A stretch of DNA of 55,965 nt, the filler included, from Asterionella formosa (taxonomy: Eukaryota): the NCBI GenBank assembly GCA_002256025.1. It is 4 parts of 4 records of this genome, joined end to end, with 100 filler letters (N's around TTAATTAATTAA, not from the genome) between each part and the next. Parts side by side here need not be neighbours in the genome. Positions count along the whole stretch, not along the records: positions 14,024 to 27,945 come from NKIB01006306.1; 3 more parts are not named here. One strand, 5' to 3'. The notes below the pieces were generated by a model that had not been told where the DNA came from, made no database searches, and was given only the letters and a program-made list of their open reading frames with translations. This document shows, in pieces, positions 9,776 through 48,652 of the stretch (its first letter is position 1; the number at the start of each line of letters is the position of its first letter). The position numbers and the translations under genes were made by a program.

Positions 9776-12700
9776 TTAGAGCTCAGCAAGTTGGGTTTGT
9801 ACGTTGATAACATCCCCATTCACAGTTGTCCTTGATGACACTGTACTAACTGATCCAATTCCTCCACTTGAGTCTTCGATGGAAACTTCAAGTTGCTTGC
9901 CATCTTCATCTCGTGTAATGACAACAGTGCATTTCTCTCCAACAACGCGTCCAAGGTCAATCGTTGCCGCATCTCCCTCTTTCATAAAACCGCGCACAAG
10001 AGCATCACTGATACTATCCTCTAAGAAACGTTGCGCAGCACGTCGCATTGGTCGAGCACCAAACTGAGAGGCTTGTGCACTCCCTTCATCTCGGACTCGC
10101 CGGACAAGGGCTGATGTTATCGTCAAGTGCATGTTCCGTTCTGACTTTGCGCGGTTGACTGTTTGTTGCAGTAACAACGATGCAATGTCGCTCAAATCAC
10201 CTTCACCAAGCGGAGAAAAGACCACGATTTCATCAAGACGATTAAGAAGTTCGGGTCGGAGTGCATCTTCTAACTCTTCTTTCACAACAGCTATGAGTTT
10301 GGAATATAAATCTTCTGCTCTGATTGTCTCACTTAGTGCTGGACTAGGCAAAGAAGTTCCTTGCATTGTATTCATCAAACCTGATGCAAACGAGCTAGCT
10401 GCATTGTTGGTCCAGCTAGATATAACACTTTCCACCGCTCCCTGAATAGAAGCTATACCTGATTTTGGCTCTTTGGAAGCCGTAGGGGCCAGGGGTGGGG
10501 TATTGTCTGCCTCCAAGACAGCCCAAAGATTTTGTAGGAATGCTGCAACCTTTGGGCTATTTTGCCCCGCCTTTAGAAGGTCAGCTGGCGAACCACCCAT
10601 GGCAGTCTGCATGGCTTTCATTGTTACAGGATCGGCAGCAGCTTCCATCATGAGTTTCATGGCTTTTGGGTTGTTTTGTAATTTGGACAGTACTTCCTCT
10701 GGTTTCATAGGTTGCAATGAGGTGGATGACAATTCCTTCGCAACTTCAGGAGAGCGGTATACCGAGGCATCGCTCTCTCGTGAAGCTTGCAAAATTCGCT
10801 TGCTTCCCACATTGGAAGTCATGACGAGGATTGCATTCTTGAATGAGACAGTTCGGCCTTTGCCGTCAGTCAACATGCCGTCCTCCATAATTTGAAGGAG
10901 AATATTCAAAACATCGCTGTGTGCCTTTTCTAGTTCGTCCAACAGGACAACGGCATGAGGCGATCGGCGTACTGCTTCTGTCAATTGCCCGCCTTCTTCA
11001 TAGCCAACATAACCAGGTGGAGGCCCGGTCAACCGACTGACACTGTGTTTTTCCATATATTCCGACATGTCAATCCTGATCATATCCTTTTCAGATCCAA
11101 AGTATGTTTGGGCCAGGGTCTTACAGAGTTCCGTCTTTGAGTTGGGTCCAACGTCATTGTTAGCGACAAGTTTCAAACAGATCTAAGCAATGGCATAAAC
11201 ACAGCAACCGCTTCGTACCTTGCCAGTGCCGGTTGGGCCACAAAACATAAAGGACGCAATTGGACGTTTTGGATCTCGCAATCCACTTCGTGCTCGGCGG
11301 ACGGCTCGTGCCACAGCACTGACTGCCTTTTGCTGTCCCTTGACACGGGCTGTCAATTCATCTTCTAAAAACAGCAGTCGTTGCATTTCGTCTGATTCTA
11401 GTTTTCCCAAAGGTATGTTTGTCCATTCTGACAACACTTGTGCCACAGAGTGTTCCGTCACAGTTGGAGACTTGGCAAAATCAACAGGTTCCACTCCCAT
11501 GACAGAATCCATATGAACCAATGCACCTGCTTCATCGAGCAAGTCAATTGCCTTGTCCGGCAAGAATCGATCATTGATATAACGTTCACTCATTTTGGCA
11601 GCGGCCACGAGAGCCTCATGTGTATAAGCAACACCATGATGTTTCTCGTACTTGGAAACGATTGCCTTGAGGATCAACAATGTTTGTTCCACCGTTGGTT
11701 CTTTGATCATGAGAGGTTGGAATCGTCGCTCTAACGCCGCGTCTTTTTCAATGTATTTCCTATATTCAGTAATAGTCGTTGCTCCAATGATTTGTAGTTC
11801 TCCTCGTGCCATGACTGGTTTCAATAAGTTCGCCGCATCCATGGACTCTCCTTCTCCTGCACTACCAGCACCTATCAATTGATGTACTTCGTCAATGAAG
11901 AGAATCGTAGGAGTGGTCTTTTCATTGGTGACTTCAGCAATAATGTTTTGAATACGTTCTTCAAATTCACCTCTATACTTGGTGCCTGCCACTAGACTTG
12001 CCAATTCTAAGGAAACAATTCGAAATCCTTTCAATCGTGGTGGGCAAGTCGTTTCATTGACAAGAATTTGTGCCAACCCTTCTGCAATGGCTGTTTTACC
12101 AACACCAGGTTCTCCGATCAAGCATGGATTGTTCTTTCGTCGCCTGACTAATGTTCTTAGGGCCGAACGAATTTCTTCATCTCTACCATATACAGGATCC
12201 AGTTGACCTGCTCTGGCCATTGCCGTCAAGTCTACTCCACACTCAGCCAATGTGGGTGTCTTGGATGCCCCACCAGCACCACTCCCAGCAATGGCCAAGT
12301 CCTTGTCATTTTGTTCTTGTTTCATATTGGTCATTAATGCAAAGCAAAACTCCGTCGCATCCAAGTCTTCCAACCCATCCGTTCTAAGCAAAACTGCCAA
12401 ACCCCCACATTGAATCCTTCCATCCATCGGTTGTGCCGCCGTTTCTCCCGTAAATTCCAACAGTGCCAACAGGACATGTTGGCTATGAATGGTGGGTGAC
12501 CCTAACTTATCCGCAAGTCTACTGGCATCGACCATTCCTGTCTTTAGCTTTTTTGAAAACGGCAAATCTTGTGGTTGCGATTTGAAAAAGGCAAACGCAT
12601 CATTGGAATTGGCAGCAGGATACATTTCTGAAAGAGTCTTGGTGACCTTGCGCCATGTAATGTCATATTGGACCAATGTCGATTTCGCCGCTTCTGGTCG

Positions 12701-14023: not shown

Positions 14024-14786
14024 ATGTCCTTAGGGACAGAAGCTCTAAATGAAAGGCGCAAGGAGTATAGTGGAGGACCAGTAATCGAGGGACAACAATG
14101 CGATTCACCTTTTCTTCACTATTTTGTCCTCCAACGTGTAAAATAAATACGTATACTCAAGTTTCAAAAGTTGGCACTTTGCTTGGGTTCACCATCAGGT
14201 ACTCCCGATGTTGGTATAGATCTATATTTTTATGTTTGCAAATTACAAAGTCCACAGTGCATTCATCAACAGTTGACCGACCGTTCCAACATACTCTTTC
14301 TCGCATCATTGAGGTCAAGTGAAATGGTGGGTCCCTGAAGTTTGGATTATGAATACGAGATTTGATATAATATATATAATAATAAATAAACCTACATTTA
14401 TCATGATTTGTGCATAAATAAGATATGTACATCTACTACACTCTATATACTCCGTAGCATGTACTCCTACAGAAACGAGCAAGCAAGCAGATATCCGGGT
14501 GATGTATGTACATTAGCTCTTGCTTTTATCATCAAATGGGTGTTGGTCGTTTGTTGATTGCGTGGTGACGATGATGGCATTCGCCACATCCTCAAAACTT
14601 GCTGCCAAGACCAATGGATATAACGGTAGTACTTGGAGTATACCGGTACGTACGTGTGAAATACAAACCGGTATGATGTTCTGGTATTCAGTCTGCCCCT
14701 GTTGGCTGGTAGAAAGCAAACGAAAGGCTGTGCGTGCCGTGCGTAAATAAAATTCTGAATATGTACCATGTTTGAGCACGAATTAA

Positions 14787-16011
14787 GGTTGCTGCATTTG
14801 AACCCCTAGGCAAAAATTAAAATATTGCTTAGGGTTGCGAAAATGCCCTGGAATGAAGAATTTAATTAGCTATTTTTGAATGACGTGATTCCATTTGAAA
14901 TATTTAAATCAGTGGAAATTTGCGAATACGTACATAGATTCCTTGTCAAAATCGCTAAATTTATAAATAAACAGTCATGGTCGCTGAATGTATATATACG
15001 CTAAAAACTGTTAGGGTTAGGGCATGGACACTCTATTCTCCGATTAACGATTTTATATGCTATGCAATGAATCCGTTCGACATATTCAAATCGTTTAATA
15101 TATGTATATGCATTCAGGTTCTACATCGCTTCATGTGCATACACCAGTGCTACAATCTATATCCGATCGACGACTATGGGTCATGTATACGACCCGGCGG
15201 CTCGGCAAATATTTGAAAGTGCACTCAAGGAGCGGTACGCGTATGTCCAATGATGATCATCTACTGGTACCTGGTACCCTGGTATCCGTGGAGAATATAG
15301 AACCGGACTGTCAGTACACACAAGAAAATATTACATGTTTATACAATGTGGCCGGCGTGGGTTTGCAAGACCTCGCAAACCAGGCCAATCAAACAGAGGA
15401 ATGCAATTCACGTTCACCAATCATATTATAAATGTGGAAGCGGGCACTTACAATGGAATTTTTTGGACAGGAGATTTTAGAACTAAAAATTCCGGCACAC
15501 GACTACCATTCCGATGATGACGTTTTGGCACTTAATAATTCTGATTCCGATATTTGGGCGACAGTAGAAAAGGCCGATTTTGTCGAGTTTTTGGACGACG
15601 ATAGCTAATCGTTGGCTGTGTCTGACGGCGATTTAGATACATAGGTAACTTTCAAATAGCATCAGTATATAACTTCTGGCGAGAAACTGCAAAAAGGAAC
15701 TTCGGTTTTTTTACTATGCCAAATAAACAAATTTCCCCCGAATTTTCGAGTCTTTCTAGCATAGTTAAAAAACCGAAGTTCCTTTCTGCAGTTTCTGACC
15801 AGATCCTATATACTGACGATATATAGAGTGGACCTACACCCCTACTTTGTCCGAAGACTGTATGTAAGCATACGCAAAGGGTGTGTATTGGTGAAATTTC
15901 CGTTGAGCGTTATACATGTCTATTTTATACGTGAAAAGTACGTGTTTGATTAGTCTGACTGAATATTTTTTTTTAACCCTACCTCGAGCTAGGGGTTCAA
16001 ATGCAGCAACC
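14787..16011. mobile_element. Non-autonomous DNA transposon (1225 bp) with 23-bp TIRs and TTAA target duplication
   Basis: TTAA|GGTTGCTGCATTTGAACCCCTAG ... CTAGGGGTTCAAATGCAGCAACC|TTAA (perfect TIR). No transposase ORF. A second, shorter copy lies at 41368-41843. Confidence 0.9.
15662..15816. repeat. Long imperfect inverted repeat (~58-bp arms, 39-bp loop) inside the DNA transposon
   Basis: TCAGTATATA...AGAAACTGCAAAAAGGAACTTCGGTTTTTTTACTATGC (15662-15719) pairs with GCATAGTTAAAAAACCGAAGTTCCTTTCTGCAGTTTCT...TATATACTGA (15759-15816). Confidence 0.9.
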
Positions 16012-18757
16012 TTAATTAATACACTCTCTAAATCGTTTCTCCTTTGCTTGACAAGTATGAAGGCGAGTTAACGAAAGAATAACACAGTATCACAGTGCTT
16101 ATCACAGAATTTAGTGGTATTTCAAGCTACTGGGACCTCTGGGTCCAAATACTTAATAATTCCAAAAACGACCGATTTACCATGACGAAAGGTGCTATCC
16201 AGCAAGCAGCCAACCAAGAAGCAAAGAAAGAAAGAACAAATTATTCATGTGGGACAGAACCATAAGATAGTAATGAAATCCAATAGAAAGAGAATGCAGA
16301 ATGCTGAAGGCGGAGGAGGAGGTGAATAAGCAGACAAAGCTTAATGCAGGAGCAGCAACAATGAGAAATGGCAATTGCATGGATGTCCATTTGGCATTTG
16401 ACATAAATACTACAATTGAGGAATTCATGGCGATGATATCAACCCAACACAAACAGAAGAATAACCATGCAAAGACAAGAACAACAGCAAGAGGAAAGAA
16501 AAGAAGAATTGCAACCCCTTTTCATGACATTGAGCGATATTACAGTGCAAGAAGAAGAATACAAGAATGGCGATGTGCTAAACATTGACAAGAAAGACAA
16601 AGAAGACAGAGAAATAAAGAAGTCACCGATGAAGAAATTGCGCCAGAGCTAGATGTGCTGCTCAAAGAAAGAATTTCATGATGACAAAGAAGACAAGACA
16701 AGACAAAAACAATGAGTTGGAAGCCCTGGAATCACCAATTGTTATGGATACTTCAAATAGGACCACCAGAATTGGGGCCAAAATGGAAATCCTTAACCCA
16801 ATCTACACTCACCATCCCATTCTCCGGCTGACCTTAGAAGTGCATTCATAGAGAACTGAACCAAGTACAAAGCTACCACAACTTTTTAAAATTTACTTCC
16901 ACATGGGGAAGTGACTTCCACCCTAACCATTCCACTGCCCCACCTTACTATATGGGCCATAGAGAACAACAACAACAGCAACTCTAGAAATAGAATAGTG
17001 ATTTATATATAATTAATACTCTCTCCTCCCTCTATGATAGTACCAGTATACATTTTGGTTGTTACTCTGTATAATAGAGCTATGATGTGTTTAAACATGA
17101 TTATGGTACCTTTCTTGATTCACTCATTACCTTACACCTCAAACTACTATAAGCAAGCAAACATCGGTTTTAATAGTATACCGGTAGTTACAAGAGCCTT
17201 TAAAATAGAGAGTAGAATGGGTTGTTATGGTGTGCGGAAGTTGCTTCACAGAATAATGAAATGAAGAGAAGGGATCAATTCATTTCGATTTCATGACATT
17301 ATAAGCAACAGGTACTATGGTGGTAAGTCGCCCACATGAGACTGTACCCAAGTCACTAGCCCAACATCACAATTTCATAGATTTCCCAAACTTTGCCCTT
17401 TCATTGACATACCAAAAATGGCATACCAGTGATGTACACGAAATATTGAAAAGTTGAAACATTGGGACTTTAAACCCAACATTCGTCCATGCAATGATGG
17501 TTCACATCTAAACTTCCAAGCTTACCGGATTGTAGAGCTAATCTCAATATGATTCCTCGAACTTGGTATAATCTTATATAAAGTTATTGTTCTATTGTTT
17601 GCTTACTGATCATATATGAATGTTGTTCCACAAGTAAAACAAATTTGGTTGTCAAGTAGCAGATTCCATCCCTTCATGCCTCAACGCAAAAAATCGGTGG
17701 GCGATTAGGTGTTGTACGTGAATTTATGATTTCTGATCTTCTTTTTAATTGGTCGTGTAATTATGAATTGCGCGAATCATATACCCATTCACTAATCCTG
17801 ACTCGGTAGTTATCCACCGACTCAAGGAGGGGAGCCAAGGCGTCGTCCGAGACACGGGATAGTCTCTTCTTCGAATGCGTGATGTAGTAAGGGTAAACAG
17901 TGGATCGATTTTCCGTTGCAAAACAGCAAATGCGCTTCAATCCTCGTCTGCCATAATTCGTTTTTCGTTTCGTATACGTTCGAATTGGCTCCTTTAGTTC
18001 ATCGCGATAATGGACTGGGAAAGATCCCTTAGCGGCAACCGGAAAGGCACCTTTCTTTGCAATCATCACGTTTGCTGGCATCATGCTTTAATGTCCTTAA
18101 TTCGACATGCTTTCTGTGGGATTGATTATGAAGGTCAACATCAAAGTACCAGGTAGCAGAAAATCTTCCTATTGCACTTCTCCGACTACCGGGGTAGTTA
18201 GTTAGTAAGTACACTGATGGTGAGCAAATTGTGGCGAGGCCGATTATCGCTTTGTATCCTCCACGACCCCACCCCCATCACAAAAAGCCACGTAAAATGC
18301 TTGCATTTACTCATCCTCCCGCGTAGTACCGGTATAGCCGGTAGCATTACAGGTATACAAATACAGACCGGTAGATAACAATTAAAAAAAGACACATATA
18401 AATCTCTCGATTGACTAGTTCGAATGGAACAACAGAACCTGGTACTACACCCATATGTATATGAATGTAGTGACATCCTGGTCCTCTACCTAGCTAGTGC
18501 GTAACCACTGGTACATAAATTGGATTTTCGTTGTTGCTTGACACGCTTAAGATTTGGATATGACAGCAGGCAATTTCTCGCTTGCCGATCCGGTCCTACA
18601 GATTTCGCTTTTGTATCCATGGGTATACCTCGGGGTATGGGACAGCTTGGTGACCCTGTCGAAGCTGCTACTTCGCATATGGTAGACTACTTCAGAATCC
18701 AATGCCAGGTACAATATGGTAACTCTTGCTGCCCTTTTCTAGTCTTTTGGAGGCAGG

Positions 18758-19023
18758 TGCTGAAATTGTTTCCCGAAGCACTCTATGCTTTCTTGTATCC
18801 TGTAAGGACACGTCAGGGACCAAATAGGCTGTAGATATAACAACGATGTCTCCGTGATCGATTGTAATCGTTCCTAAGAGTTTTAATAGAATTATGGGTT
18901 TTTACTGTTGGCGTAGATTGTTTTCGAATTCTCTGGTACTATATTCTTTCTTGATTCATTCGATTCAATATGTAGTAGGTAATTCATACCGGGATTTTCT
19001 TTCCTAAAATATTTTCTCCAACA
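18758..19023 (-). repeat. Copia 3' LTR
   Basis: Near-identical to 24045-24310. Confidence 0.95.
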
Positions 19024-19045
19024 CACTCCTGCTGGACACGGATGC

Positions 19046-22000
19046 TCACTTTGAATTCATAATTTGCTGACGAAAATGAATAAATTTCGTTCCAACCAGT
19101 GGTTTCGTCATGTAGTCTGCTAACATTGCATCCGTTAGACAGTACTTAATCTGTACTTCCTTTCTTTCAATAAGATCAGTAATATAAAAATACTTGATGT
19201 TGAAATGTTGCATGCATTTTCCTGAACTTGCTTTTCCATTTGCTTCTAGCTTCATTGCGCTAGTGTTGTCACGGTAAATGACATTCGTAGTCACCTTGTG
19301 TCCATGTGCTTCAATGAATAATTTCGTCCACAACACCTTTGATATAATGTCATCGACACCAACCAATTCTGCTTCAGTCGAGCTTCTAGTGTTCACTTTC
19401 TGTTTCATGGACATAGAACAAATAATTCCGTTTCCAAGTGACGATGTGGCTCCAGTGTGACTTTTAAAATCTTTGTGTACTGCAAACGCCTCATCAACAT
19501 AGTACCATTTAATGCTCTGAGTGTCATCAGCACCCATAGATGCAACCTCGTTCTGAGTTGCTTTCAAGAAATTCATGATCTTGACTAATTTTGCCCAATC
19601 GCCTTTATTTGGTTCAGTAGTTCGGGTTGCCAGAAATGCAATTCCTGGTTGAATGTCCTTTTTTCCTCGCTTACATAGGAACATTCCTTTCATAACAAAA
19701 GTATGAAATATTTTTGCTTTTTCATATTCAAGCTTCTTTGATTTTGTATCAACTGCGAACAATTTATCTGTCCATGGAAATTTTTCAACTCCTTTAAGTT
19801 TGTCTGGAAAATCATCAATCATTGATTTCACATATTTGGTCATGTCCACCCAAAACACTCCTGGAAGAGAGTAATCTAATGTCATCGCCAAATAATCATG
19901 CTTCTTTCCACGCATGACCTTGACTTCACCAATTTCGTCAGAAGCGTATTTCTTTTTGAGCCATTCCAAAAATTAATCATTCACTTTCCTGTCCACGTGA
20001 ATTGATTTCAAGTCATCTATGTGCCAAGTAACTGTGTCCTGTTTACCATTAACAATGCGATTTGCAACGCATGGATCATATGGATTGACCTTGAATCCAA
20101 TTGACTCAATATCCTTCCGAAATTTCTTGTAATATAATAATGATGACTGTAACATGCCATATAATGCCTTGATCATCCTAACATATAGGACCTTGTTGTT
20201 TCCTTCATAAACAACATATTTTTCATAAGTCTCGGGGCTGAGTTTTGTCAACATAGTGACAAGCAAACCTCTAATCTTCATAATGATTCGTTCCCCTTTT
20301 TCTTTCTCATCGATATCCACTTGCACAAATGCATTGGGTATATCTGCAGTCATGACATCGCGATTTTGCTTCGCATCAATTGTTGCTGTTATCATAACAG
20401 ATTCAGTCATGGTAGTTGGACTAGCTGCTTCATCTCTTTCCATGTATTCACGCTGCGAACTGCCATTGGCGCATGCTCTGCCTTTAATGCTCTTGTCTCT
20501 CTTTTCAACCAAAAAAATTAGACTTTCCATTGCACGTCGCTTTTCGATATCGGTTAGGTCTTCAATCCTAATTGGTTCAAATACAACTCTATCATGAAGT
20601 TGTTTCATTTCTTTATGAGCAGCATCTCTTCCTTTCTGGCCGAATTTCTTGAGGCCTTTCCTTAAGCTGTATGACTGAACAAAGTGAAATGCTTCTTTAT
20701 CGATACACATCTCATTCATATAACACATTGTCTTTGCGATCACTTTCGCATTATCAGTCGTGTATTCTTCTTGACAGTGTGCTTGGGTATGCAAATGATT
20801 TTGGACCATAGTTAATTTTGACGGTGGTCTTGAGACTCTTCCAGACCTTGTAGTTCTAACATTTGGATCTGAGTCATCCTGAGTGCTTGGATTGACTTCT
20901 AACAATGCCTCTTCATTTTCAGTTTCATTTTCTGGCTCTTCATCCTCATCTTGGAATTCATCTACATCCATTTCAATATTGTTCTCATTGTTGCCCTCTT
21001 CAGGTTCATGGTCATCCTCTTGAGTATTGTTGTTTAATTCAAGCTGTTCTGCTTCATATATTTCATCTGGAGTCATTTCATCATAGTCTTCTTCTCCAAG
21101 AATTTCATCATTGCTTTCGTTTTCATCTTCATAATCTTCATCTTGTGCATCTTCAAATGCTTCATTATCATAATCCACTCCTGCAATCCAAGCACTATCA
21201 TAAAATAGTTGTCCTGTTCGATTTGATATCTTGAGACCATCTGGCATATTTTCCTGCACAGCAAGGGCGTGTACTTGATTCATGATTGCTGGGGTAAGTG
21301 GTAGAGGAGTAATTGTTCGTCTAGTGATCAATGAATTTGTAGGTAGGTGTAACAATTCATGACCTCCTTGCACGTCGTCATTGTAGCGTAGATAAATTCA
21401 ATCTAGGCTGCGTGGTGCATTGGTGTTTGAAAACACAGGTTCTTCATGTGCTTGGACATAAGTGCCAAATGTATACTGGCAATGTCGAGTATAGTCCAGG
21501 TTTTGTTGATGTAAAATCATACAAGGACTGTAGTACGGGGATATCCCATTCTTTGCCGGAAAGAAATTCAGTTTCTTTCCAGATTCTGTCACTAGAATCT
21601 TAATCATCAGTCGTGGCAAATGTTTGAAAGGTAATCGATGATATGCTGCGCGCACGCGTTCTTTAATCACTCGATTATTTCGCTCCGCTTCGGGAACATG
21701 TTCTTGTGGGTTTGCGTAGTTCATAGTGACTTGAAATTCATTGGAAATTTGTTCCATCAAAGGTCGAAACTCATTGTCACAGTGGAATATTGTAATTTTA
21801 AATCCTCCAGTATTATAAACACGAAATACTTGAATCAAAGCATCTCGATAGACTTCAGCTGTCTGATTCTTGACCCATTGCGCTGTCCTATACATAATGT
21901 TTCGAGAAATTGTTGTGAGAAATGATTGTCCATTGACTTTCATTCCATCCATGCAAAGAGTCACTTCGCGTTGAGCTTGGATAAGCTCCTTAGGAATCTC

Positions 22001-23911
22001 GATGTAGTCGTTCACGACTGGCAGCGGCTTGCGACGAGTTGTCTTGCCTTTTAGTGTTCCGATGTCAGGTCCAAAAATTTTCTCTGCAATTTTGATATCA
22101 TCGGTAGTCACTGGATTATTGTTGATCGTATTCATACGAATTATTGCCTTGAAATCATTAATTGATGGTGTACCCAAGGCATGGAATAGATCACGAGCTC
22201 GCTTAGCTCTCTGAAATTGACGTTCAGTGTAAAATGTTTTGTTTTCTTCAAGTGTATTTAACATTTGAGCATTCTCCGCTCTAATTCTTGTAGTTGGCTC
22301 GAAAACATATAAGTTCATCCCAATTCTTTCAAATCGAACTGTTTTGTCAGGCAAATGAACAATGAATGCATCTTCTTTCTCAGAGTCGTAGGTAATTCTG
22401 TACCTTTCTGCCATTTCGGCATAACTGAAGATGTTTGTGATAGCCTTTTCATTAAACCATACTTCTCCCCATTCTGGAAGATCAGCCTTCATATTAGTTA
22501 CCATGGATCCACCATTTGTGGCCAGGTGCATGCTTCTGTTGGTTGACATTCGAATGTTATTAACCATTTTTGGATTGCAAAAGACTGTGACACTTGATTG
22601 ATTATCCAATAGTATCCAGTCACCCATCTCAGATGCTTGGTAAAATTGTAGTTTCATATGAGCTCCCATCCATCCAAATTGATTGGCATTTGCTTGTTGT
22701 GAAGCTTGTGATGACGGCGGGTTGTTGGAATTAACAGAGGTAACTGTACTTGTGTCAGATGTATTAGCCTGTGCCTGTGCATGGCTTTGGGCCTTGTTAA
22801 TTGCCCATTCCTCTTTGGGTTTATTTTTGTCTCGACACGAAGGAGATTTGTGACCTGCTTTTCCGCAGCAGTAACATTTTCCTTCTAACTGTGCAAACGA
22901 TAAGTTCACATCTTCGTCTTCCTTGCCTGCATCCTTTTGTTTCCTCTCTTTATCATTATCTCCTGGTTTCTTGTAGGCAGATTTATTTGTTACGTCAAAC
23001 CGATGGTTGCTGAGAACATTATTTGATTCGGTGATGGTCTTTGGGTATTGATCGTTACCGAGTGACTGTTGAGTGTTCAGCCCGGTCATAATTGAACCGT
23101 ATTTACCTTTATCGGCATTATCGAGATATAAATATGCCATAAATTGACTGAAAGCTTGTTAGCGAAATTTATCTCGTTGCTTGATGTCGTTCTCATTGTA
23201 TCCTTCCATGGCTTCAACGAACTTGGTGAGGATAATGGGTCCTCCCATGTGTGACTTGAGCACATCTCGTGCCACACGAAATCTCTTGGTGTAGTCTTGT
23301 AGACTTTCTCCTTCTTTTTGCTTTGTGAATAAAAGCGTTCTCAACGCATCTAAAATGATCGACATTGAATATCGATTCTCTTGAAAATTTAGTGCGTGTT
23401 CTTTAATTGCCATAAGCAATGTTATTGGGTTATTTTCGATCCTATTGTAATCGGATCTTGCTTCAATCTTGTTCTTCATGGCTTTGTTGCATCTTTCCCA
23501 GAGCAACGCATATGCCTTGGTATTATTATTTTCGTAGGCCTGTACCCTTTTACTGTAGTTGTCATAATCAGCCTTAAACTCGATCTCAAATTGTCGATTC
23601 TCTGCAGCGCGATCTTCTTCTGTTGTTGCAATGCTCACTTGCATTCTTGGCTTCCATGCCGATGTGTTGATTGGTTCTAATGACTTGAGTGCGCTTCCAA
23701 TGTCGCTGCCATAATCAAACACTTTCTTGATATGATTGATGAGGTACTCAGTAGTAGTCTCATAGTCAGATGCCTGCTTCGATGATCCAAGGTAGTAGTT
23801 ATAGTCATTGACTGACTTCTTGATGGAGTGAGAAGCAATATTGCTCCCTCCCTTGGCTTGAAACTTGCCCTTGGCTTGAGCCTTCTTGGTAAACTTTCCT
23901 TTGCCACTCAT
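19046..23911 (-). pseudogene. Copia gag-pol polyprotein, one frame of 1622 codons interrupted by three in-frame stops
   Basis: The four listed ORFs share one frame and are separated only by TAA (23161-23159), TGA (21400-21398) and TAA (19975-19973). Motifs: CYCCGKAGHKSPSC; ILLDNQS; CMDG, HCDNEF, EAERNNRVIKE; ADIPNAF, WHIDDL; SSTEAE, DNTSA, ADYMTK. Confidence 0.92.
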
Positions 23912-24029
23912 GATGCGCCCTGTGCGACTTCTTCAGACTCTGGATGGTCTGGTACCCTCAGATCTTGTCTCCGGACTCTCAATTGTCCGCTTGTTGTTGA
24001 TTGTGGTATCACGGCTCTTCCTGGCCGGC

Positions 24030-24044
24030 TAATTCTATTAAAAC
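24030..24044 (-). promoter_or_regulatory. Putative non-tRNA (self-priming) primer-binding site of the Copia element
   Basis: The element strand reads GTTTTAATAGAATTA immediately after the 5' LTR, with no TGG. It is perfectly complementary to the LTR-internal element-strand segment at 24181-24167. Confidence 0.7.
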
Positions 24045-24310
24045 TGTTGAAATTGCGTCCCGAAGCACTCTATGCTTTCTTGTATCCTGTAAGGACACGT
24101 CAGGGACCAAATAGGCTGTAGATATAACAACGATGTCTCCGTGATCGATTGTAATCGTTCCTAAGAGTTTTAATAGAATTATGGGTTTTTACTGTTGGCG
24201 TAGATTGTTTTCGAATTCTCTGGTACCATATTCTTTCTTGATTCATTCGATTCAATATGTAGTAGGTAATTTATACCGGGATTTTCTTTCCTAAAATATT
24301 TTCTCCAACA
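24045..24310 (-). repeat. Copia 5' LTR
   Basis: Near-identical to 18758-19023. Confidence 0.95.
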
Positions 24311-24409
24311 GAATGAGAGAGTGAATTTGGAACTTGCACGTTGAATTCATCGAGAGATTGTATAAACTCAAGTTTTCAAACACGACCACAAAGAAAAAGG
24401 CGTTTCATC

Positions 24410-26707
24410 ATGATGGAACAACCAAACAACCAAAATCAACGAAACGTGAACGTATCATGGGAGGCATTAGGTTTGTCAGTGGCCAGTACAGCCCCCGAAC
24501 GAACTGTAGCTACAAATGAACATGACTTCAAAATGTTTTTAATAATGAATGGAAAATGTACTAAATGTGAAAGAAGTGTGCGTCGCGAAATGGATTCGTC
24601 CGGATCTTTGCGAGAACGCTGCGACTGTTGCATAGATGATCCTATTGATACAATTTTTAAAGTGATGCAAGTTCGGCCTATTGAGGCTGTCGATCTAGAG
24701 AAACATCTCAGCAATCTTCAGGAATTGGCTGCTTTTAACAACCAGGATGAGATTGTTAGAAAAGAAGGTATCGAGAAGATTATGACTGCTATGAATCATC
24801 ATTCAGGAATTGTTAATGTGCAAAAACATGGTATTGGAGCACTTGGAAGTTTGGCTAGGAATAATGACAAAAACAAGGTGGAGATTGCCAATAAAAGTGG
24901 TATCGCGGCGATTGTGAAAGCTATGACGAATCATCCCGACGAAGACGTTGTGCAAAATGAAGGTTGTAAAGAACTTTGGAACTTGGCTGTGGATGATACC
25001 AACAAGGAAAAGATTGTTGAAAAAGAAGGTATTGATGTGATTGTGTCTGCAATGATAAATCATTTAGATAAACCTCACGTGCAACACTATGGTTGTGCAG
25101 CACTTAATAACTTGGCTGTTAATGATATCAACAAGGAAAAGATTGTCGAAAAAGAAGGTATTGGTGTGATTGTGTCTGCAATGAAGAATCATTTAAGTTT
25201 TGTCGATGTGCAACGTTATGGTTGTGCAGCACTTAATAACTTGGCTATGAATGATACCAACAAGAAAAAGATTGGTGAAAAAGAAGGTATTGATGTGATT
25301 GTGTCTGCGATGAAGAATCATTTATCTAATGCTGATGTGCAACGTTATGGTTGTGCAGCACTGAATAACTTGTCTGTGAATGACAACAACAAGGAAGAGA
25401 TTGCTAGAGGAGACGGCATCGACATGATTGTAACTGCGATGGATAAATATCGTGATAATATTCATCTACAAGAATATGGTTTTTCAGCGCTGGCGAACTT
25501 GGCTGTTAATGATACCAACAAGGAAAAGATTGCTGGTGGAAAAGGTATCAAAATTATTATGTCTGCTATGGAAAAACATTCCTTAAATGCTAATTTACAA
25601 CACTATGGTTGTAAAGAACTTTTGAACTTGGCTTACAATGATAACAACAAGAAGAAGATTGGTAAAGGAAGAGGTACCGATAGCATTGTGTCTGCAATGA
25701 AGAATCATTTATTTAATGCTAATGTGCAACACTATGGTTGTGCAGCACTTAATAACTTGGCTGTGAATGATATCAACAAGGAAAAGATTGTTGAAAAAGA
25801 AGGTATTGATGTGATTGTGTCTGCAATGAAGAATCATTTATTTAATGCTAATGTGCAACACTATGGTTGTGCAGCACTCAATAATTTAGCTGTGAATGAC
25901 AACAACAAGGAAGAGATTGCTAGAGGAGATGGCATCGACATGATTGTGTCTGCAATGAAGAATCATTTAACTATTGTCGATGTGCAACACTATGGATGTG
26001 CAGCACTGAATAACTTGGCTGTGAATGATGACAACAAGAAGAAGATTGGTGAAGGAGAAGGTATTGATGTGATTGTGTCTGCAATGAAGAATCATTTAAC
26101 TATTGTCGATGTGCAACACTATGGTTGTGCAACACTAAATAACTTGGCTCTGAATGATGACAACAAGAAGAAGATTGGTGAAGGAGAAGGTATTGATGTG
26201 ATTGTGTCTGCAATGAAGAATCATTTAACTATTGTCGATGTGCAACACTATGGTTGTGCAGCACTAAATAACTTGGCTGTGAATGTTGACAACAAGAAGA
26301 AGATTGGTGAAGGAGAAGGTATTGAAATGATTGTGTCTGCAATGAAGCATCATTTAACTATTGTCGATGTGCAGCACTATGGTTGTGCAGCACTAAATAA
26401 CTTGGCTGTGAATGTTGACAACAAGAAGAAGATTGGTGAAGGAGAAGGTATTGATATGATTGTGTCTGCAATGAAGCATCATTTACCTATTGTCGATGTG
26501 CAGCACTATGGCTGTGCAGCACTTAATAACTTGGCTGTGAATGTTGACAACAAGAAGAAGATTTCCAGGGCTAATGGAAAAGACGTAATTGTGTCTGCTT
26601 TGCAAAATCACACATCTAATGCAGATGTGCAAAAAGAAGGTAAAGGAGCACTTGAACAAATTGCCCCATTGGAAACAATCATCATGGTCCTATTTAGGAA
26701 GATTTGA
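24410..26707 (+). CDS. Armadillo-repeat protein (~15 repeats of 43 aa) with an N-terminal Cys cluster, 765 aa from the first ATG
   Basis: Intronless ORF with repeat consensus GIDVIVSAMKNHLxxxDVQHYGCAALNNLAVNDDNKKKIGEGE (129-bp period) and N-terminal CTKC...CDCC. The ORF track start at 24341 is TTG; the first ATG is at 24410. Confidence 0.88.
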   Translation: MMEQPNNQNQRNVNVSWEALGLSVASTAPERTVATNEHDFKMFLIMNGKCTKCERSVRREMDSSGSLRERCDCCIDDPIDTIFKVMQVRPIEAVDLEKHLSNLQELAAFNNQDEIVRKEGIEKIMTAMNHHSGIVNVQKHGIGALGSLARNNDKNKVEIANKSGIAAIVKAMTNHPDEDVVQNEGCKELWNLAVDDTNKEKIVEKEGIDVIVSAMINHLDKPHVQHYGCAALNNLAVNDINKEKIVEKEGIGVIVSAMKNHLSFVDVQRYGCAALNNLAMNDTNKKKIGEKEGIDVIVSAMKNHLSNADVQRYGCAALNNLSVNDNNKEEIARGDGIDMIVTAMDKYRDNIHLQEYGFSALANLAVNDTNKEKIAGGKGIKIIMSAMEKHSLNANLQHYGCKELLNLAYNDNNKKKIGKGRGTDSIVSAMKNHLFNANVQHYGCAALNNLAVNDINKEKIVEKEGIDVIVSAMKNHLFNANVQHYGCAALNNLAVNDNNKEEIARGDGIDMIVSAMKNHLTIVDVQHYGCAALNNLAVNDDNKKKIGEGEGIDVIVSAMKNHLTIVDVQHYGCATLNNLALNDDNKKKIGEGEGIDVIVSAMKNHLTIVDVQHYGCAALNNLAVNVDNKKKIGEGEGIEMIVSAMKHHLTIVDVQHYGCAALNNLAVNVDNKKKIGEGEGIDMIVSAMKHHLPIVDVQHYGCAALNNLAVNVDNKKKISRANGKDVIVSALQNHTSNADVQKEGKGALEQIAPLETIIMVLFRKI

Positions 26708-40818: not shown

Positions 40819-41367
40819 AGGCTCAACAATTCTCAACAAGGATCAACGATGCTACAATGCTATATTCCTAATCTGGCTGGCTATTGTAAACTCTACAATC
40901 AACAATGACTAAACAATGTGCTATATTGTGTCTAATAATACATGCAATGAATCAACTGCGTGAATCTTCCCCTTGCATGTGATGTTCTTTGCCAGTTCAG
41001 ATCAAAGAAATATGCTGGAGCGGAAAAATAATAAGTGAATTGGAAATGGTGACTCTTTCTTTCATTATAGGGTGAAAGCAGTATAATATTGCTGCGGAGC
41101 TGCATAATTTCGCTATTATACTGTAGCGATGGCTAGTTGGTCAACATACACTATTGTCGTGAACACACATCATAATTATTCGATAAGTGAAAATTTTTTA
41201 AAACCTGAATAAATGACGGAAAAAGTAACATAATATTTTAGAAGAGTAGCATAAATTCATCGGTTTAGACAGAAATTCGAAAAGATGCCGTAAACGACAT
41301 CTTACTGTCTTTACAACCCTTGCGACGTTTTCTACAAGATAGGGTTAAGCCGGAGCCGCAACCTTAA

Positions 41368-41843
41368 GAATGCTGCATTTGAAACCCTACATAGGCAAAA
41401 ATTAAAATATTGCTTAGGGTTGGCAAAATTCCCTGGAATTAAAAATATGATTAGCAATTTTTGAATGACGTGATTCCATTTGAAATATTTAAATCAGTGG
41501 AAATTTTCGAATACATACTTAGATTCCTTTTCGAAATCGCTAAATATATATATATAAACATTGTACATCGCTGAATGTACTATATATACCCTAAAATACA
41601 ATCAACATATATGCTTCAACACTCTATACTCCAATTGACGATTTTATGTTCTAACAATGAATCCGTTCGAATATTCAAATCACTGAATATATATAAATTT
41701 AGATTCTCCATCACTTTATGTTTATATACCGGTACTACAATCTATACTCCGATCGACAATTCTGGTGTGTCATGCACTCTACCCGCTCCGATTGACTCAA
41801 TTTTTAAACCCTACCTCGAGCTAGGGGTTCAAATGCAGCAACC
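41368..41843. mobile_element. Internally deleted copy (~476 bp) of the TTAA-flanked DNA transposon at 14787-16011
   Basis: TTAA|GAATGCTGCATTTGAAACCCTA ... CCTACCTCGAGCTAGGGGTTCAAATGCAGCAACC|TTTAA. The first ~390 bp align with 14787-15180. Confidence 0.9.
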
Positions 41844-41957
41844 TTTAAGGCATCGCTCGGGAGGCTTGTCCAAGACTGCATGGGCACGACTCCGTAAACT
41901 GGTTGGGGCACGAGTAAAATCCTCCTGCTGGCAGTATGCATAGTACAAGGTACCAGG

Positions 41958-46346: not shown

Positions 46347-47778
46347 CTATGGCATAATACTGGATGGGGGCATCCTTGTGGGATCTGTCAAATGCTTTCG
46401 TCCCAACTCAGGGGCTTCATCTGCCAGAGGTGGCCATTTTCCACCTGCCATGCAATGTTCCACTTCGGAGATGGTGCGTGGACACATGGTAAAATTATAA
46501 AAGCCATTACTGGTGACACAAAACACATCTTCCAATCGAACCCCTCCAAAGCCTCTATATTCTTTCAATACATCGGCATTCAAAAACTTGCTGTGAACAG
46601 GGGATGCCAAGGCTTCGTCTAACAACCAATCAATAAAGTAACACCCCGGTTCATTGGTCAATACCATGGATTCTTTCAAGATCCTAGCCGTTCGTAACGA
46701 TTTGAGTCCTGGTTGTTGAATGCGTTCTGGATGGCCAGGCAAGTAGCCTCCCACATCATGCGTATCAATTCCAATGAAATGACCCAAACCGTGCGGCATA
46801 AATATGGCTCCCAATCTCATGTCAACCAAATTTTCTATAGTGGTAGTGCAGGGATCTTCCTCGACCATCACCACCCCCAAGTGTACCAATTGTGTCAAAA
46901 TGGCCCGTTCGGCCGCCTTGTGACAGTCTACCCAGCTCACCCCCGGTCGGATCATGGCCCACACGGCCTTTTGTGCATTCAAAACTGCTGTATATATTCC
47001 AGCTTGTTTTTCAGTAAAGATTCCACTTGCAGGATACGAGCAGGTAATATCACTACCATATCCAAAGTATTCAGCTCCCATATCCATCAATAACATATCA
47101 TTGGGTTGAATTTGTCGATTGTTAGGTTCTCCGGCATGTCCATAATGCAATATACTTGAATTGGGTCCACATCCACAAATGGGAGTGTAACCCACCAATC
47201 TAGATCCAAAATTAAAATATCCATAATGTCGAAATAAAGATTCACATTGATACTCCATCATAAATGGTTTCGTGTGACGCATGGTATAAACGTGTGCCAT
47301 GGATGAAATGTACGCAACATGCTCGAGGAGATTCAATTCGTACTCTGATTTGATCACTCTACATTCAGCAAGAATTGGAAATAATGTAGTTGTATCAATA
47401 CTGTGTTCCTTCATGATTTCAGACTTGAATATTGGAGCAGGATAGACATTGCCCGAATCTGAATTGGTCCCGTGCATTACGAGTAGTGCCAGCTGATGCT
47501 GTTGGTCGTCTGTGTTAAATAGTAGCCGATGTAAATATGACTCTGTATCGTCAGTGAACTGCACAAAATCCACTTGATATTTGTGTTTCCATTCATCCAA
47601 AGTGAGGATATGTCCCATAATAGTGGCATAACTCTGCGGTACTTTCGGAACGAACAAGGTCGTTCGTCCTGTTGTTGTCTCAATGGCGACAGCACAATCA
47701 GGGTCCATGACACCAGTCAACCAAAGGAAGTAAGATTCTTGACGAAAGATGGGTTCATGATCCGTGTCGTTTCTTGTC
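46347..47778 (-). CDS. PEPD: Xaa-Pro dipeptidase (prolidase, M24B), 5' part lost in the assembly gap
   Basis: FRQESYFLWLTGV, LMDMGAEYFGYGSDIT, MPHGLGHFIGIDTHDVGG, TNEPGCYF, GGVRLEDV. Confidence 0.92.
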
Positions 47779-48314
47779 NNNNNNNNNNNNNNNNNNNNNN
47801 NNNNNNNNNNNNNNNNNNNNNNNNNNNNNNNNNNNNNNNNNNNNNNNNNNNNNNNNNNNNNNNNNNNNNNNNNNNNNNNNNNNNNNNNNNNNNNNNNNNN
47901 NNNNNNNNNNNNNNNNNNNNNNNNNNNNNNNNNNNNNNNNNNNNNNNNNNNNNNNNNNNNNNNNNNNNNNNNNNNNNNNNNNNNNNNNNNNNNNNNNNNN
48001 NNNNNNNNNNNNNNNNNNNNNNNNNNNNNNNNNNNNNNNNNNNNNNNNNNNNNNNNNNNNNNNNNNNNNNNNNNNNNNNNNNNNNNNNNNNNNNNNNNNN
48101 NNNNNNNNNNNNNNNNNNNNNNNNNNNNNNNNNNNNNNNNNNNNNNNNNNNNNNNNNNNNNNNNNNNNNNNNNNNNNNNNNNNNNNNNNNNNNNNNNNNN
48201 NNNNNNNNNNNNNNNNNNNNNNNNNNNNNNNNNNNNNNNNNNNNNNNNNNNNNNNNNNNNNNNNNNNNNNNNNNNNNNNNNNNNNNNNNNNNNNNNNNNN
48301 NNNNNNNNNNNNNN
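47779..48314. other. Assembly gap (536 N)
   Basis: Run of N. Confidence 0.99.
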
Positions 48315-48652
48315 TATTTGAAACAGTATCGCCCCCAAAAAATCGTATATTTACCCAAATAAGGTTGAATCCATTATCGACCTTATCCATTACAATTATT
48401 AGTACAATAATATAAGCTGGTACCAGGTACTACCGGTACCTATAAGAATAGACTACTACCTTTACCGGTATGTAGTACGGTAGTATTTTATCTTTTGCTT
48501 CATTAAATAAGATCAAACACTCAAGAACAGTTCCAACAGCATCGTCATCAGGCATCATTGTTGCCCATTACCGGTACACCGGTAATCTCTTCCATCACTC
48601 GATCTGGTTGTCAAGTTTCTATATCCATGATACATGATATCTATGTATCATC

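What the first reader, a model, noticed from the sequence alone, without database searches (positions are those of the whole stretch)
24030..24182. tRNA-independent, self-priming architecture in a Copia retrotransposon
Seen: on the element (minus) strand the 5' LTR ends ...TTTCAACA and is followed directly by GTTTTAATAGAATTA, not the TGG of a tRNA PBS. The exact complement TAATTCTATTAAAAC(T) lies inside the LTR at 24181-24166 (16 bp including the terminal A), right after a CCCA initiator-like motif. Established: S. pombe Tf1, a Gypsy-group element, primes reverse transcription by folding the first 11 nt of its RNA onto the PBS and cleaving with RNase H. Inference: transcription starts near 24182 and the RNA 5' end serves as primer, in the Copia superfamily that normally uses tRNA. 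From memory, a similar idea was proposed for the Phaeodactylum element Blackbeard, so novelty needs checking; the duplex here is longer than in Tf1.
Basis: partly seen in the sequence, partly recalled or inferred. Interest (0 to 1): 0.72.

Follow-up and report, generated by a model that had tools for sequence, protein, structure and literature searches.

The report
Self-priming diatom Copia retrotransposon lineage
This jumping gene, probably from a diatom, has no site for the host tRNA that normally starts its copying; instead the predicted first 15 bases of its own RNA pair with that site, a pairing its relatives keep with different letters, so it most likely primes itself, a trick proven in a fission-yeast element and predicted for one plant group.

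Summary
Observation confirmed. A 5.55-kb Copia element (minus strand, 266-nt LTRs, dead copy) has a 15-nt primer-site (PBS) sequence, 24044-24030, exactly complementary to LTR 24181-24167. In 61 testable related metagenome loci, 47 carry a perfect inverted repeat of 13 nt or more upstream of gag (coding control 0 of 61, shuffles 3 of 1220); 46 start at the LTR's terminal CA; 32 distinct PBS 14-mers differ by 7 bases on average, none starts TGG, and each pairs with its own LTR. The published diatom initiator (CAH+1W) sits exactly at the 5' edge of the duplex in 27 of 32 (primer 14 nt; 15 nt here, predicted start 24181), and the base just outside the predicted RNA pairs in only 12 of 29. No host tRNA found matches. 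Other Copia lineages in the same genome lack the pairing. Best reading: Tf1-like self-priming (0.8); start site, cleavage and priming are not shown. It is not the first in Copia: self-priming is already predicted for plant TAR elements. The Blackbeard precedent was not found. This scan noted the same architecture before (23 findings, at least 4 genomes). New variant of a known kind.

The parts
24045..24310 (-). 5' LTR, 266 nt, TG...CA
   Evidence: direct repeat with 18758-19023, 98%
24180..24183 (-). initiator-like CA-T(+1)-A; predicted transcription start T24181
   Evidence: fits CAY+1A of PMC4686930; same register in relatives; start not mapped
24167..24181 (-). predicted self-primer, first 15 nt of the RNA
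   Evidence: exact complement of 24044-24030
24161..24166 (-). TCTTAG just 3' of the predicted cut; its T pairs with the LTR's terminal A, followed by a C-C mismatch
   Evidence: T 28, C 27, T 29, T/A 30, A 27, G 30 of 32 distinct families; C-C opposite in 27 of 32; role inferred
24030..24044 (-). primer binding site position, 15 nt, directly after the LTR, no TGG
19046..23911 (-). single gag-pol frame in Copia order: gag with one CCHC, protease, integrase, RT, RNase H; broken by in-frame stops at codons 251, 838 and 1313
19024..19034 (-). purine-rich tract position, CAGCAGGAGTG, before the 3' LTR
   Evidence: an AGGAGTG-type tract precedes the LTR in 16 of 32 relatives where the pattern found it
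18758..19023 (-). 3' LTR, ends TTTCAGCA, carries the second copy of the primer segment

Best explanation
A dead copy of a high-copy, diatom-type Copia family whose lineage primes minus-strand DNA synthesis with its own RNA 5' end. Steps: (1) Pol II starts at the initiator CA-T(+1)-A, T24181 [inferred from consensus and register]; (2) the first 15 nt fold onto the 15 nt right after the LTR, looping out about 120 nt of R-U5 [pairing shown in sequence, conserved with changes on both sides; folding computed]; (3) the element's RNase H cuts after nt 15, in front of the conserved TCTTAG, to free a 3'-OH facing the LTR end [inferred by analogy with Tf1]; (4) RT extends it across U5-R and the usual strand transfers follow [established pathway]; (5) plus-strand synthesis copies the primer and so rewrites the PBS from the RNA's own 5' end, which would carry a change in the LTR segment over to the PBS and explain the near-absence of mismatches and G-U pairs [inference].
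For: Perfect inverted repeat of 13 nt or more upstream of gag in 47 of 61 testable loci, against 0 of 61 coding stretches and 3 of 1220 shuffles; right arm starts at the LTR-end CA in 46 of 47; 32 distinct PBS 14-mers, mean Hamming distance 7, own-LTR match 13-16 nt, cross-family match at most 11 nt in 992 pairs; the 46 loci form 36/23/20 gag clusters at 90/80/70%. CAH+1W sits at primer length 14 in 27 of 32 and at 15 in 2, background 2.7% per position. The A just upstream of the predicted start pairs in only 12 of 29: constraint stops where the RNA would begin. Sister families in the host with both LTRs: perfect 14-nt match after TCA in L210 and L212, near match in L206 and L207. Four elements of other Copia lineages with LTR pairs in the host reach at most 7 nt of self-match (L193, L194, L201, L204). 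Longest exact complement to 58 distinct host tRNA genes: 6 nt. RNase H acidic motifs are present in the frame. Tf1 precedent: PMC7175516 passages.
Against: No start site, cut site or primer was observed; the RNA runs laid were contigs only. The 46 loci in the per-position table were chosen for having the repeat, so 100% pairing at positions 1-13 is by construction. Of 14 tested loci that missed, 1 has the perfect repeat further upstream (L078), 6 have it with 1-2 mismatches, 6 lack one arm or a recognisable LTR, and 1 (L087) has an apparent LTR end with no complement in 193 nt upstream. TCAHW is a short motif, found in 68% of 80-nt upstream regions by its authors. The tRNA set is incomplete (63 of 3876 candidates scored); an organellar-looking tRNA-Tyr reaches 14 of 15 pairs when G-U is allowed, a level 9 of 100 shuffled PBS also reach.
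Confidence: 0.8

Rival explanations
1. Same pairing, primer delivered otherwise: the 14-15 nt come in trans, from the 5' end of the second packaged RNA or from short capped transcripts of any LTR (solo LTRs included), or are freed by a host nuclease rather than the element's RNase H.
For: Sequence covariation cannot tell cis from trans; the host holds many LTR copies (404 candidates; 206 exact 15-mer matches).
Against: The cis fold is strongly favoured: mean pair probability above 0.8 in 31 of 32 families. A conserved motif abuts the predicted cut. Tf1 works by cleavage of its own RNA.
Confidence: 0.1
2. The helix is a structural element of the leader (closing R-U5 for packaging, dimerisation or translation control) and priming uses something else.
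For: No direct evidence of priming; fungal GalEa elements have a conserved hairpin at the PBS position with unknown role (PMC5445492).
Against: One arm begins exactly at the LTR end and the other exactly at the predicted start; length is fixed at 14-15; G-U pairs are absent at positions 1-14 in 32 families, unlike ordinary RNA helices; no other primer site is left.
Confidence: 0.05
3. A host tRNA, tRNA half or other small RNA is the primer and the LTR match is secondary.
For: The host tRNA set searched is partial; half-tRNA priming exists in Copia and another Copia in this genome (L194) has a site with a 9-nt match to the anticodon region of a tRNA-Met.
Against: 0 of 32 PBS have TGG at offsets 0-2; 21% GC; 32 different sequences; longest exact match to this host's tRNAs 6 nt for the window PBS.
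Confidence: 0.02
4. The RNA's 3' end is the primer: transcripts ending in the 3' LTR right after the complementary segment pair with the PBS and are extended without cleavage.
For: The segment is present in both LTRs.
Against: This gives no reason for the sharp far edge of the pairing at an initiator motif, and would leave almost no R repeat for strand transfer (inference).
Confidence: 0.03

Closest known systems
Tf1/Tf2 of Schizosaccharomyces pombe, Tj1, Tcn1 and the Tf1/sushi group (Ty3/Gypsy)
   Same: PBS complementary to an LTR segment at the RNA 5' end; no tRNA site. In Tf1, RNase H cuts between bases 11 and 12 (review passages, PMC7175516; Tj1, PMC4600332).
   Different: This element has Copia domain order and a 14-15 nt duplex instead of 11; its mechanism is untested.
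Plant Ty1/Copia TAR lineage (Houba, Osr-1)
   Same: Copia elements with self-priming predicted from an LTR complement of the post-LTR sequence (PMC6317226 passages).
   Different: Plant hosts; the element here belongs to a diverged lineage with a WHVDD-type RT and only a weak RVT_2 score (32 bits). No TAR sequence was in my tree, so independent origin is inferred, not tested.
Diatom CoDi elements (Maumus et al. 2009; CoDi-A to D of Llorens et al. 2009)
   Same: Named relatives are from Fragilaria and Nitzschia. One CCHC and no chromodomain fit CoDi-B (CoDi5, the CoDiII lineage) or CoDi-C, not CoDi-A.
   Different: Neither paper's main text mentions a PBS or priming for CoDi. Blackbeard is tied to CoDi3, listed as CoDi-A with no CCHC and a chromodomain, so it is probably another clade.
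Fungal GalEa 'conserved hairpin site' (PMC5445492)
   Same: Copia elements that lost the tRNA PBS.
   Different: There the hairpin lies wholly downstream of the LTR and no LTR complement was found; here the partner is in the LTR.

Membership tests
Ty1/Copia LTR retrotransposon | Two LTRs with TG...CA ends | tested here: met
   266 nt, 98% identical
Ty1/Copia LTR retrotransposon | Order gag, protease, integrase, RT, RNase H with Copia-type RT | tested here: met
   motif order CCHC 346, protease 434, integrase 709-741, RT 1296, RNase H 1471-1597 (motif assignments from my own knowledge); Pfam RVT_2 over cut-off
Ty1/Copia LTR retrotransposon | 5-bp target duplication | tested here: inconclusive
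   this copy 3 of 5; sibling L225 and sister L212 have perfect 5-bp duplications
Self-primed LTR elements (works like Tf1) | PBS directly after the LTR complementary to an LTR segment | tested here: met
Self-primed LTR elements (works like Tf1) | No tRNA complement | tested here: met
   58 distinct host tRNA genes, a partial set; best exact 6 nt
Self-primed LTR elements (works like Tf1) | Complementary segment is the RNA 5' end | tested here: inconclusive
   initiator consensus in register in 29 of 32; no raw reads offered, contigs cannot show starts
Self-primed LTR elements (works like Tf1) | RNase H cleavage frees the primer; primer joined to strong-stop DNA | not testable with these tools
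   needs particles or purified RT
Self-primed LTR elements (works like Tf1) | U5-IR-like stem next to the PBS helix | tested here: inconclusive
   predicted folds near the LTR end differ between families; only a T-A, C-C, T-A pattern is common
Tf1/sushi clade (membership) | Ty3/Gypsy order, integrase after RNase H | tested here: not met
   integrase precedes RT
CoDi-B / CoDiII (CoDi5) | One CCHC, no chromodomain | tested here: met
   against supplement rows; shared with CoDi-C
CoDi-B / CoDiII (CoDi5) | RT tree placement with CoDi5 references | not testable with these tools
   no labelled CoDi sequence came from any call; the tree only separates this clade (100/100) from 5 other host Copia rows
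Plant TAR lineage | RT/RH/INT placement in TAR | not tested
   no TAR reference at hand

The most novel reading that the evidence does not exclude
A whole deep Copia lineage of diatoms invented tRNA-free priming on its own: a primer of fixed length (14 nt, sometimes 15) measured from the host initiator, cut by a Copia-type RNase H at a conserved TCTTAG/C-C mismatch, and copied back into the PBS each cycle so that the two arms change together. One diatom genome would then hold Copia elements with at least three priming modes (self-primer, half-tRNA-like site, palindromic site).
Probability: 0.6. Interest if true: 0.68.

Novelty: new variant of a known kind. Interest (0 to 1): 0.52.

Why it matters
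Self-priming is proven only for Tf1-type Gypsy elements and predicted for one plant Copia lineage. A large diatom Copia lineage with a base-exact predicted start and cut would show the mechanism arose again with a very different RT/RNase H, bears on whether hairpin or tRNA priming came first (raised in PMC3601003), and is testable in culturable diatoms. Practically, repeat pipelines that keep only elements with a tRNA PBS (as in PMC7466962) would tend to drop these families.

Tried and rejected
RNA runs: 24 listed, all contigs; four laid on 18600-24500 hold the element but show no place where molecules begin or end; the high summed depth over the LTR/leader bins and the one contig joining 24272 to 18986 (38 shared letters, as an assembly across the repeat would give) were not used as evidence. 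Viral contigs: no relative. Prokaryote genomes: one contig, in a MAG and probably a contaminant, with the same architecture, 17-nt repeat. First tRNA comparison was discarded because ARAGORN ran in circular mode with long introns and gave false genes; repeated linear. Within-genome search for copies with changes on both sides: none among the 22 rows printed (one row is a false match in gag); variants are one-sided, so step 5 of the mechanism has no support from inside this family. 17 of 78 metagenome loci had under 300 nt upstream and were left out of the count; among them L107 has a perfect and L099 a 2-mismatch repeat. Assignment to a named CoDi group by tree was not possible. The Blackbeard precedent: not found.

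Full report
1. The element. Two 266-nt direct repeats, 24310-24045 and 19023-18758 on the minus strand, differ at 5 positions and have TG...CA ends. Between them one reading frame runs from ATG 23911 to 19046, broken by stops at codons 251, 838 and 1313. Motifs come in Copia order: one CCHC knuckle, protease, integrase, RT (Pfam RVT_2, 32.4 bits, cut-off 31.6), RNase H (motif labels are from my own knowledge). Named relatives come from the diatoms Fragilaria and Nitzschia, with many unnamed aquatic metagenome proteins, so the host is inferred to be a diatom. The family is abundant: 404 candidates, 40 scored at 96-100% identity. This copy is dead and its flanks are not a clean target duplication.

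2. The observation. The 15 bases after the LTR (24044-24030) are the exact complement of 24181-24167 in the LTR; T24166 adds a pair with the terminal A. Expected by composition: 2.8e-6. The helix dominates the computed fold (z -3.84, 0 of 200 shuffles). Of 30 LTR/PBS junctions from the host genome, the window's own included, 26 are perfect and 4 carry one substitution.

3. Conservation across families. A gag alignment retrieved 78 metagenome loci at 39-96% identity. 17 had under 300 nt upstream and were set aside. In 47 of the other 61 the 450 nt before the gag match hold a perfect inverted repeat of 13-17 nt with a 40-300 nt loop; the same test gives 0 of 61 in coding DNA and 3 of 1220 in shuffles. 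In 46 of the 47 the right arm starts at, or directly after, the A of a CA in a CAACA-like LTR end (L077 ends CAAGA). These 46 give 32 distinct PBS 14-mers, mean distance 7 of 14, 21% GC, none with TGG; they fall in 36, 23 and 20 gag clusters at 90, 80 and 70%. Each pairs with its own LTR over 13-16 nt and with other families' LTRs over at most 11 nt (992 pairs, mostly 3-6). Because the loci were picked for the repeat, full pairing at positions 1-13 is by construction; the telling numbers are the pass rate, the register and the cross-family control. Of the 14 misses, L078 has a perfect repeat beyond the 450 nt, six have 1-2 mismatches (L066, L076, L086, L094, L095, L102; L095 judged from its upstream sequence being the same as L094's), six lack an arm or a recognisable LTR (L069, L072, L073, L085, L093, L101), and L087 has an apparent LTR end without a complement and stays unexplained. 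In most metagenome loci the LTR end was read from the motif, not from a second LTR. In the host, where both LTRs fix the ends, distant sister families (about 35-43% identical in RT) show the same design: perfect in L210 and L212, two substitutions in L206, a one-base loss in the 5' LTR of L207 whose 3' LTR is perfect. Four elements of other Copia lineages with LTR pairs show at most 7 nt of self-match, and the tree separates the self-complementary clade from five such rows at 100/100 (with a long-branch warning).

4. Where the RNA would start. Kadono et al. 2015 (PMC4686930, passages) give the diatom initiator as CAY+1A / TCAH+1W, +1 being the base after CA. Placing that motif relative to the base facing PBS position 1 gives a primer of 14 nt in 27 of 32 families (21 with the full TCAHW) and 15 nt in 2, against a background of 2.7% (1.1%) per position. 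The window reads CA-T-A, so the predicted start is T24181 and the primer 15 nt. The A before the start is constant in 29 of 32 yet pairs with PBS position 15 in only 12 of them: pairing is held exactly as far as the predicted RNA reaches. On the other side a TCTTAG-like motif and a C-C mismatch flank the predicted cut. The motif is short and common, and the RNA runs available were contigs that cannot show starts, so the start is predicted, not shown.

5. tRNA. 62 tRNA matches came from the host genome, only 63 of 3876 candidates being scored; from 49 fetched loci ARAGORN gave 58 distinct genes, many organellar-looking. The longest exact complement to the window's PBS is 6 nt; with G-U one tRNA-Tyr reaches 14 of 15, as 9 of 100 shuffles also do; best 3'-end match 11 of 15. 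More decisive is that 32 different AT-rich sites each follow their own LTR.

6. Mechanism. Most likely Tf1-like self-priming (0.8): fold-back of the first 14-15 nt, cleavage by the element's RNase H, extension across U5-R. For Tf1 the first 11 bases pair with the PBS and RNase H cuts between 11 and 12 (review passages, PMC7175516; the primary papers were not read). Copying of the primer during plus-strand synthesis would rewrite the PBS and could itself produce the two-sided changes; no such change was caught within this family. Rivals: primer in trans or host nuclease (0.10), structural helix (0.05), 3'-end priming (0.03), tRNA (0.02).

7. What is known. Neumann et al. 2019 (PMC6317226, passages) predict self-priming for 12% of plant LTR elements, including the Copia TAR lineage, and cite earlier proposals for Houba and Osr-1; so Copia self-priming is not new as an idea. 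For diatoms I found no statement: Maumus et al. 2009 (PMC2806351: abstract, outline, term searches, first third of Results) has no 'tRNA', 'Tf1', 'self' or 'primer binding' in its main text (supplements not readable, and they may list element features); Llorens et al. 2009 (PMC2774666: passages and 15 rows of supplement 3) has no 'PBS'. Library searches turned up none; subscription journals, GyDB and Repbase were not searched, so absence from print is not established. By the markers, one CCHC and no chromodomain fit CoDi-B (CoDi5) or CoDi-C rather than CoDi-A, the group of CoDi3 to which Blackbeard is tied; the clade name is tentative. Donnart et al. 2017 (PMC5445492, passages) describe a different non-tRNA site in fungal GalEa. 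This scan has noted the same architecture in 23 findings in at least 4 genomes, two of the eight shown in this genome; they are unchecked notes and were not counted as support.

8. Verdict. The feature is real, lineage-wide and well placed; the self-priming reading is strongly favoured but untested at the bench. It works like Tf1, is not a member of the Tf1/sushi clade, and extends a mechanism already predicted for plant Copia to a diverged diatom lineage. New variant of a known kind; interest 0.52.

Noticed in passing
L201:3539-3550, L205, L187 (G000 C241, C4696, C1239) and L193:3603-3612: Other Copia families in the host have a perfect palindrome right after the 5' LTR (CGCTTTAAAGCG; GCTTGCAAGC) followed by GGAT, with no LTR complement and at most 9 nt of match to the tRNAs found; reminiscent of the palindromic site of fungal GalEa. 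Priming mode unknown.
   Followed up: partly
L194, L196, L204: A third group of host Copia elements has GGTTATGAGCCC or GGTTACAAGCCC at the PBS position; L194 matches 9 nt of a tRNA-Met anticodon region, as half-tRNA priming would (label recalled).
   Followed up: partly
window 24317-26707 (+): 796-codon open frame of armadillo-type repeats built from 13-14 tandem 129-nt units; first ATG at 24410, about 100 nt from the element's 5' LTR, head to head.
   Followed up: no
window 18758-19023 and 24045-24310 flanks: Flanks CATTC and CCTGC match at 3 of 5, so this copy may be a recombinant, mutated or misassembled; the 3' LTR ends AGCA instead of AACA.
   Followed up: partly
L087:200-230: Relative with an apparent LTR end but no LTR complement in the 193 nt upstream or in the 3' LTR part present; possible exception to the rule.
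   Followed up: partly
L226 (contig in a bacterial MAG); proteins P0126, P0127: Members of this diatom-type family sit in records labelled as bacterial MAGs, probably eukaryotic contamination of the bins.
   Followed up: no
window 11140-11220 (-): The in-frame stop in the ClpB-like gene lies in a GT...AG stretch that looks like an ordinary intron.
   Followed up: partly
window 47750-48430; 14781-16017: A long 8-nt tandem repeat; and a 1.2-kb stretch with 29-nt terminal inverted repeats whose ends recur near 41360-41845, probably a non-autonomous DNA transposon.
   Followed up: no
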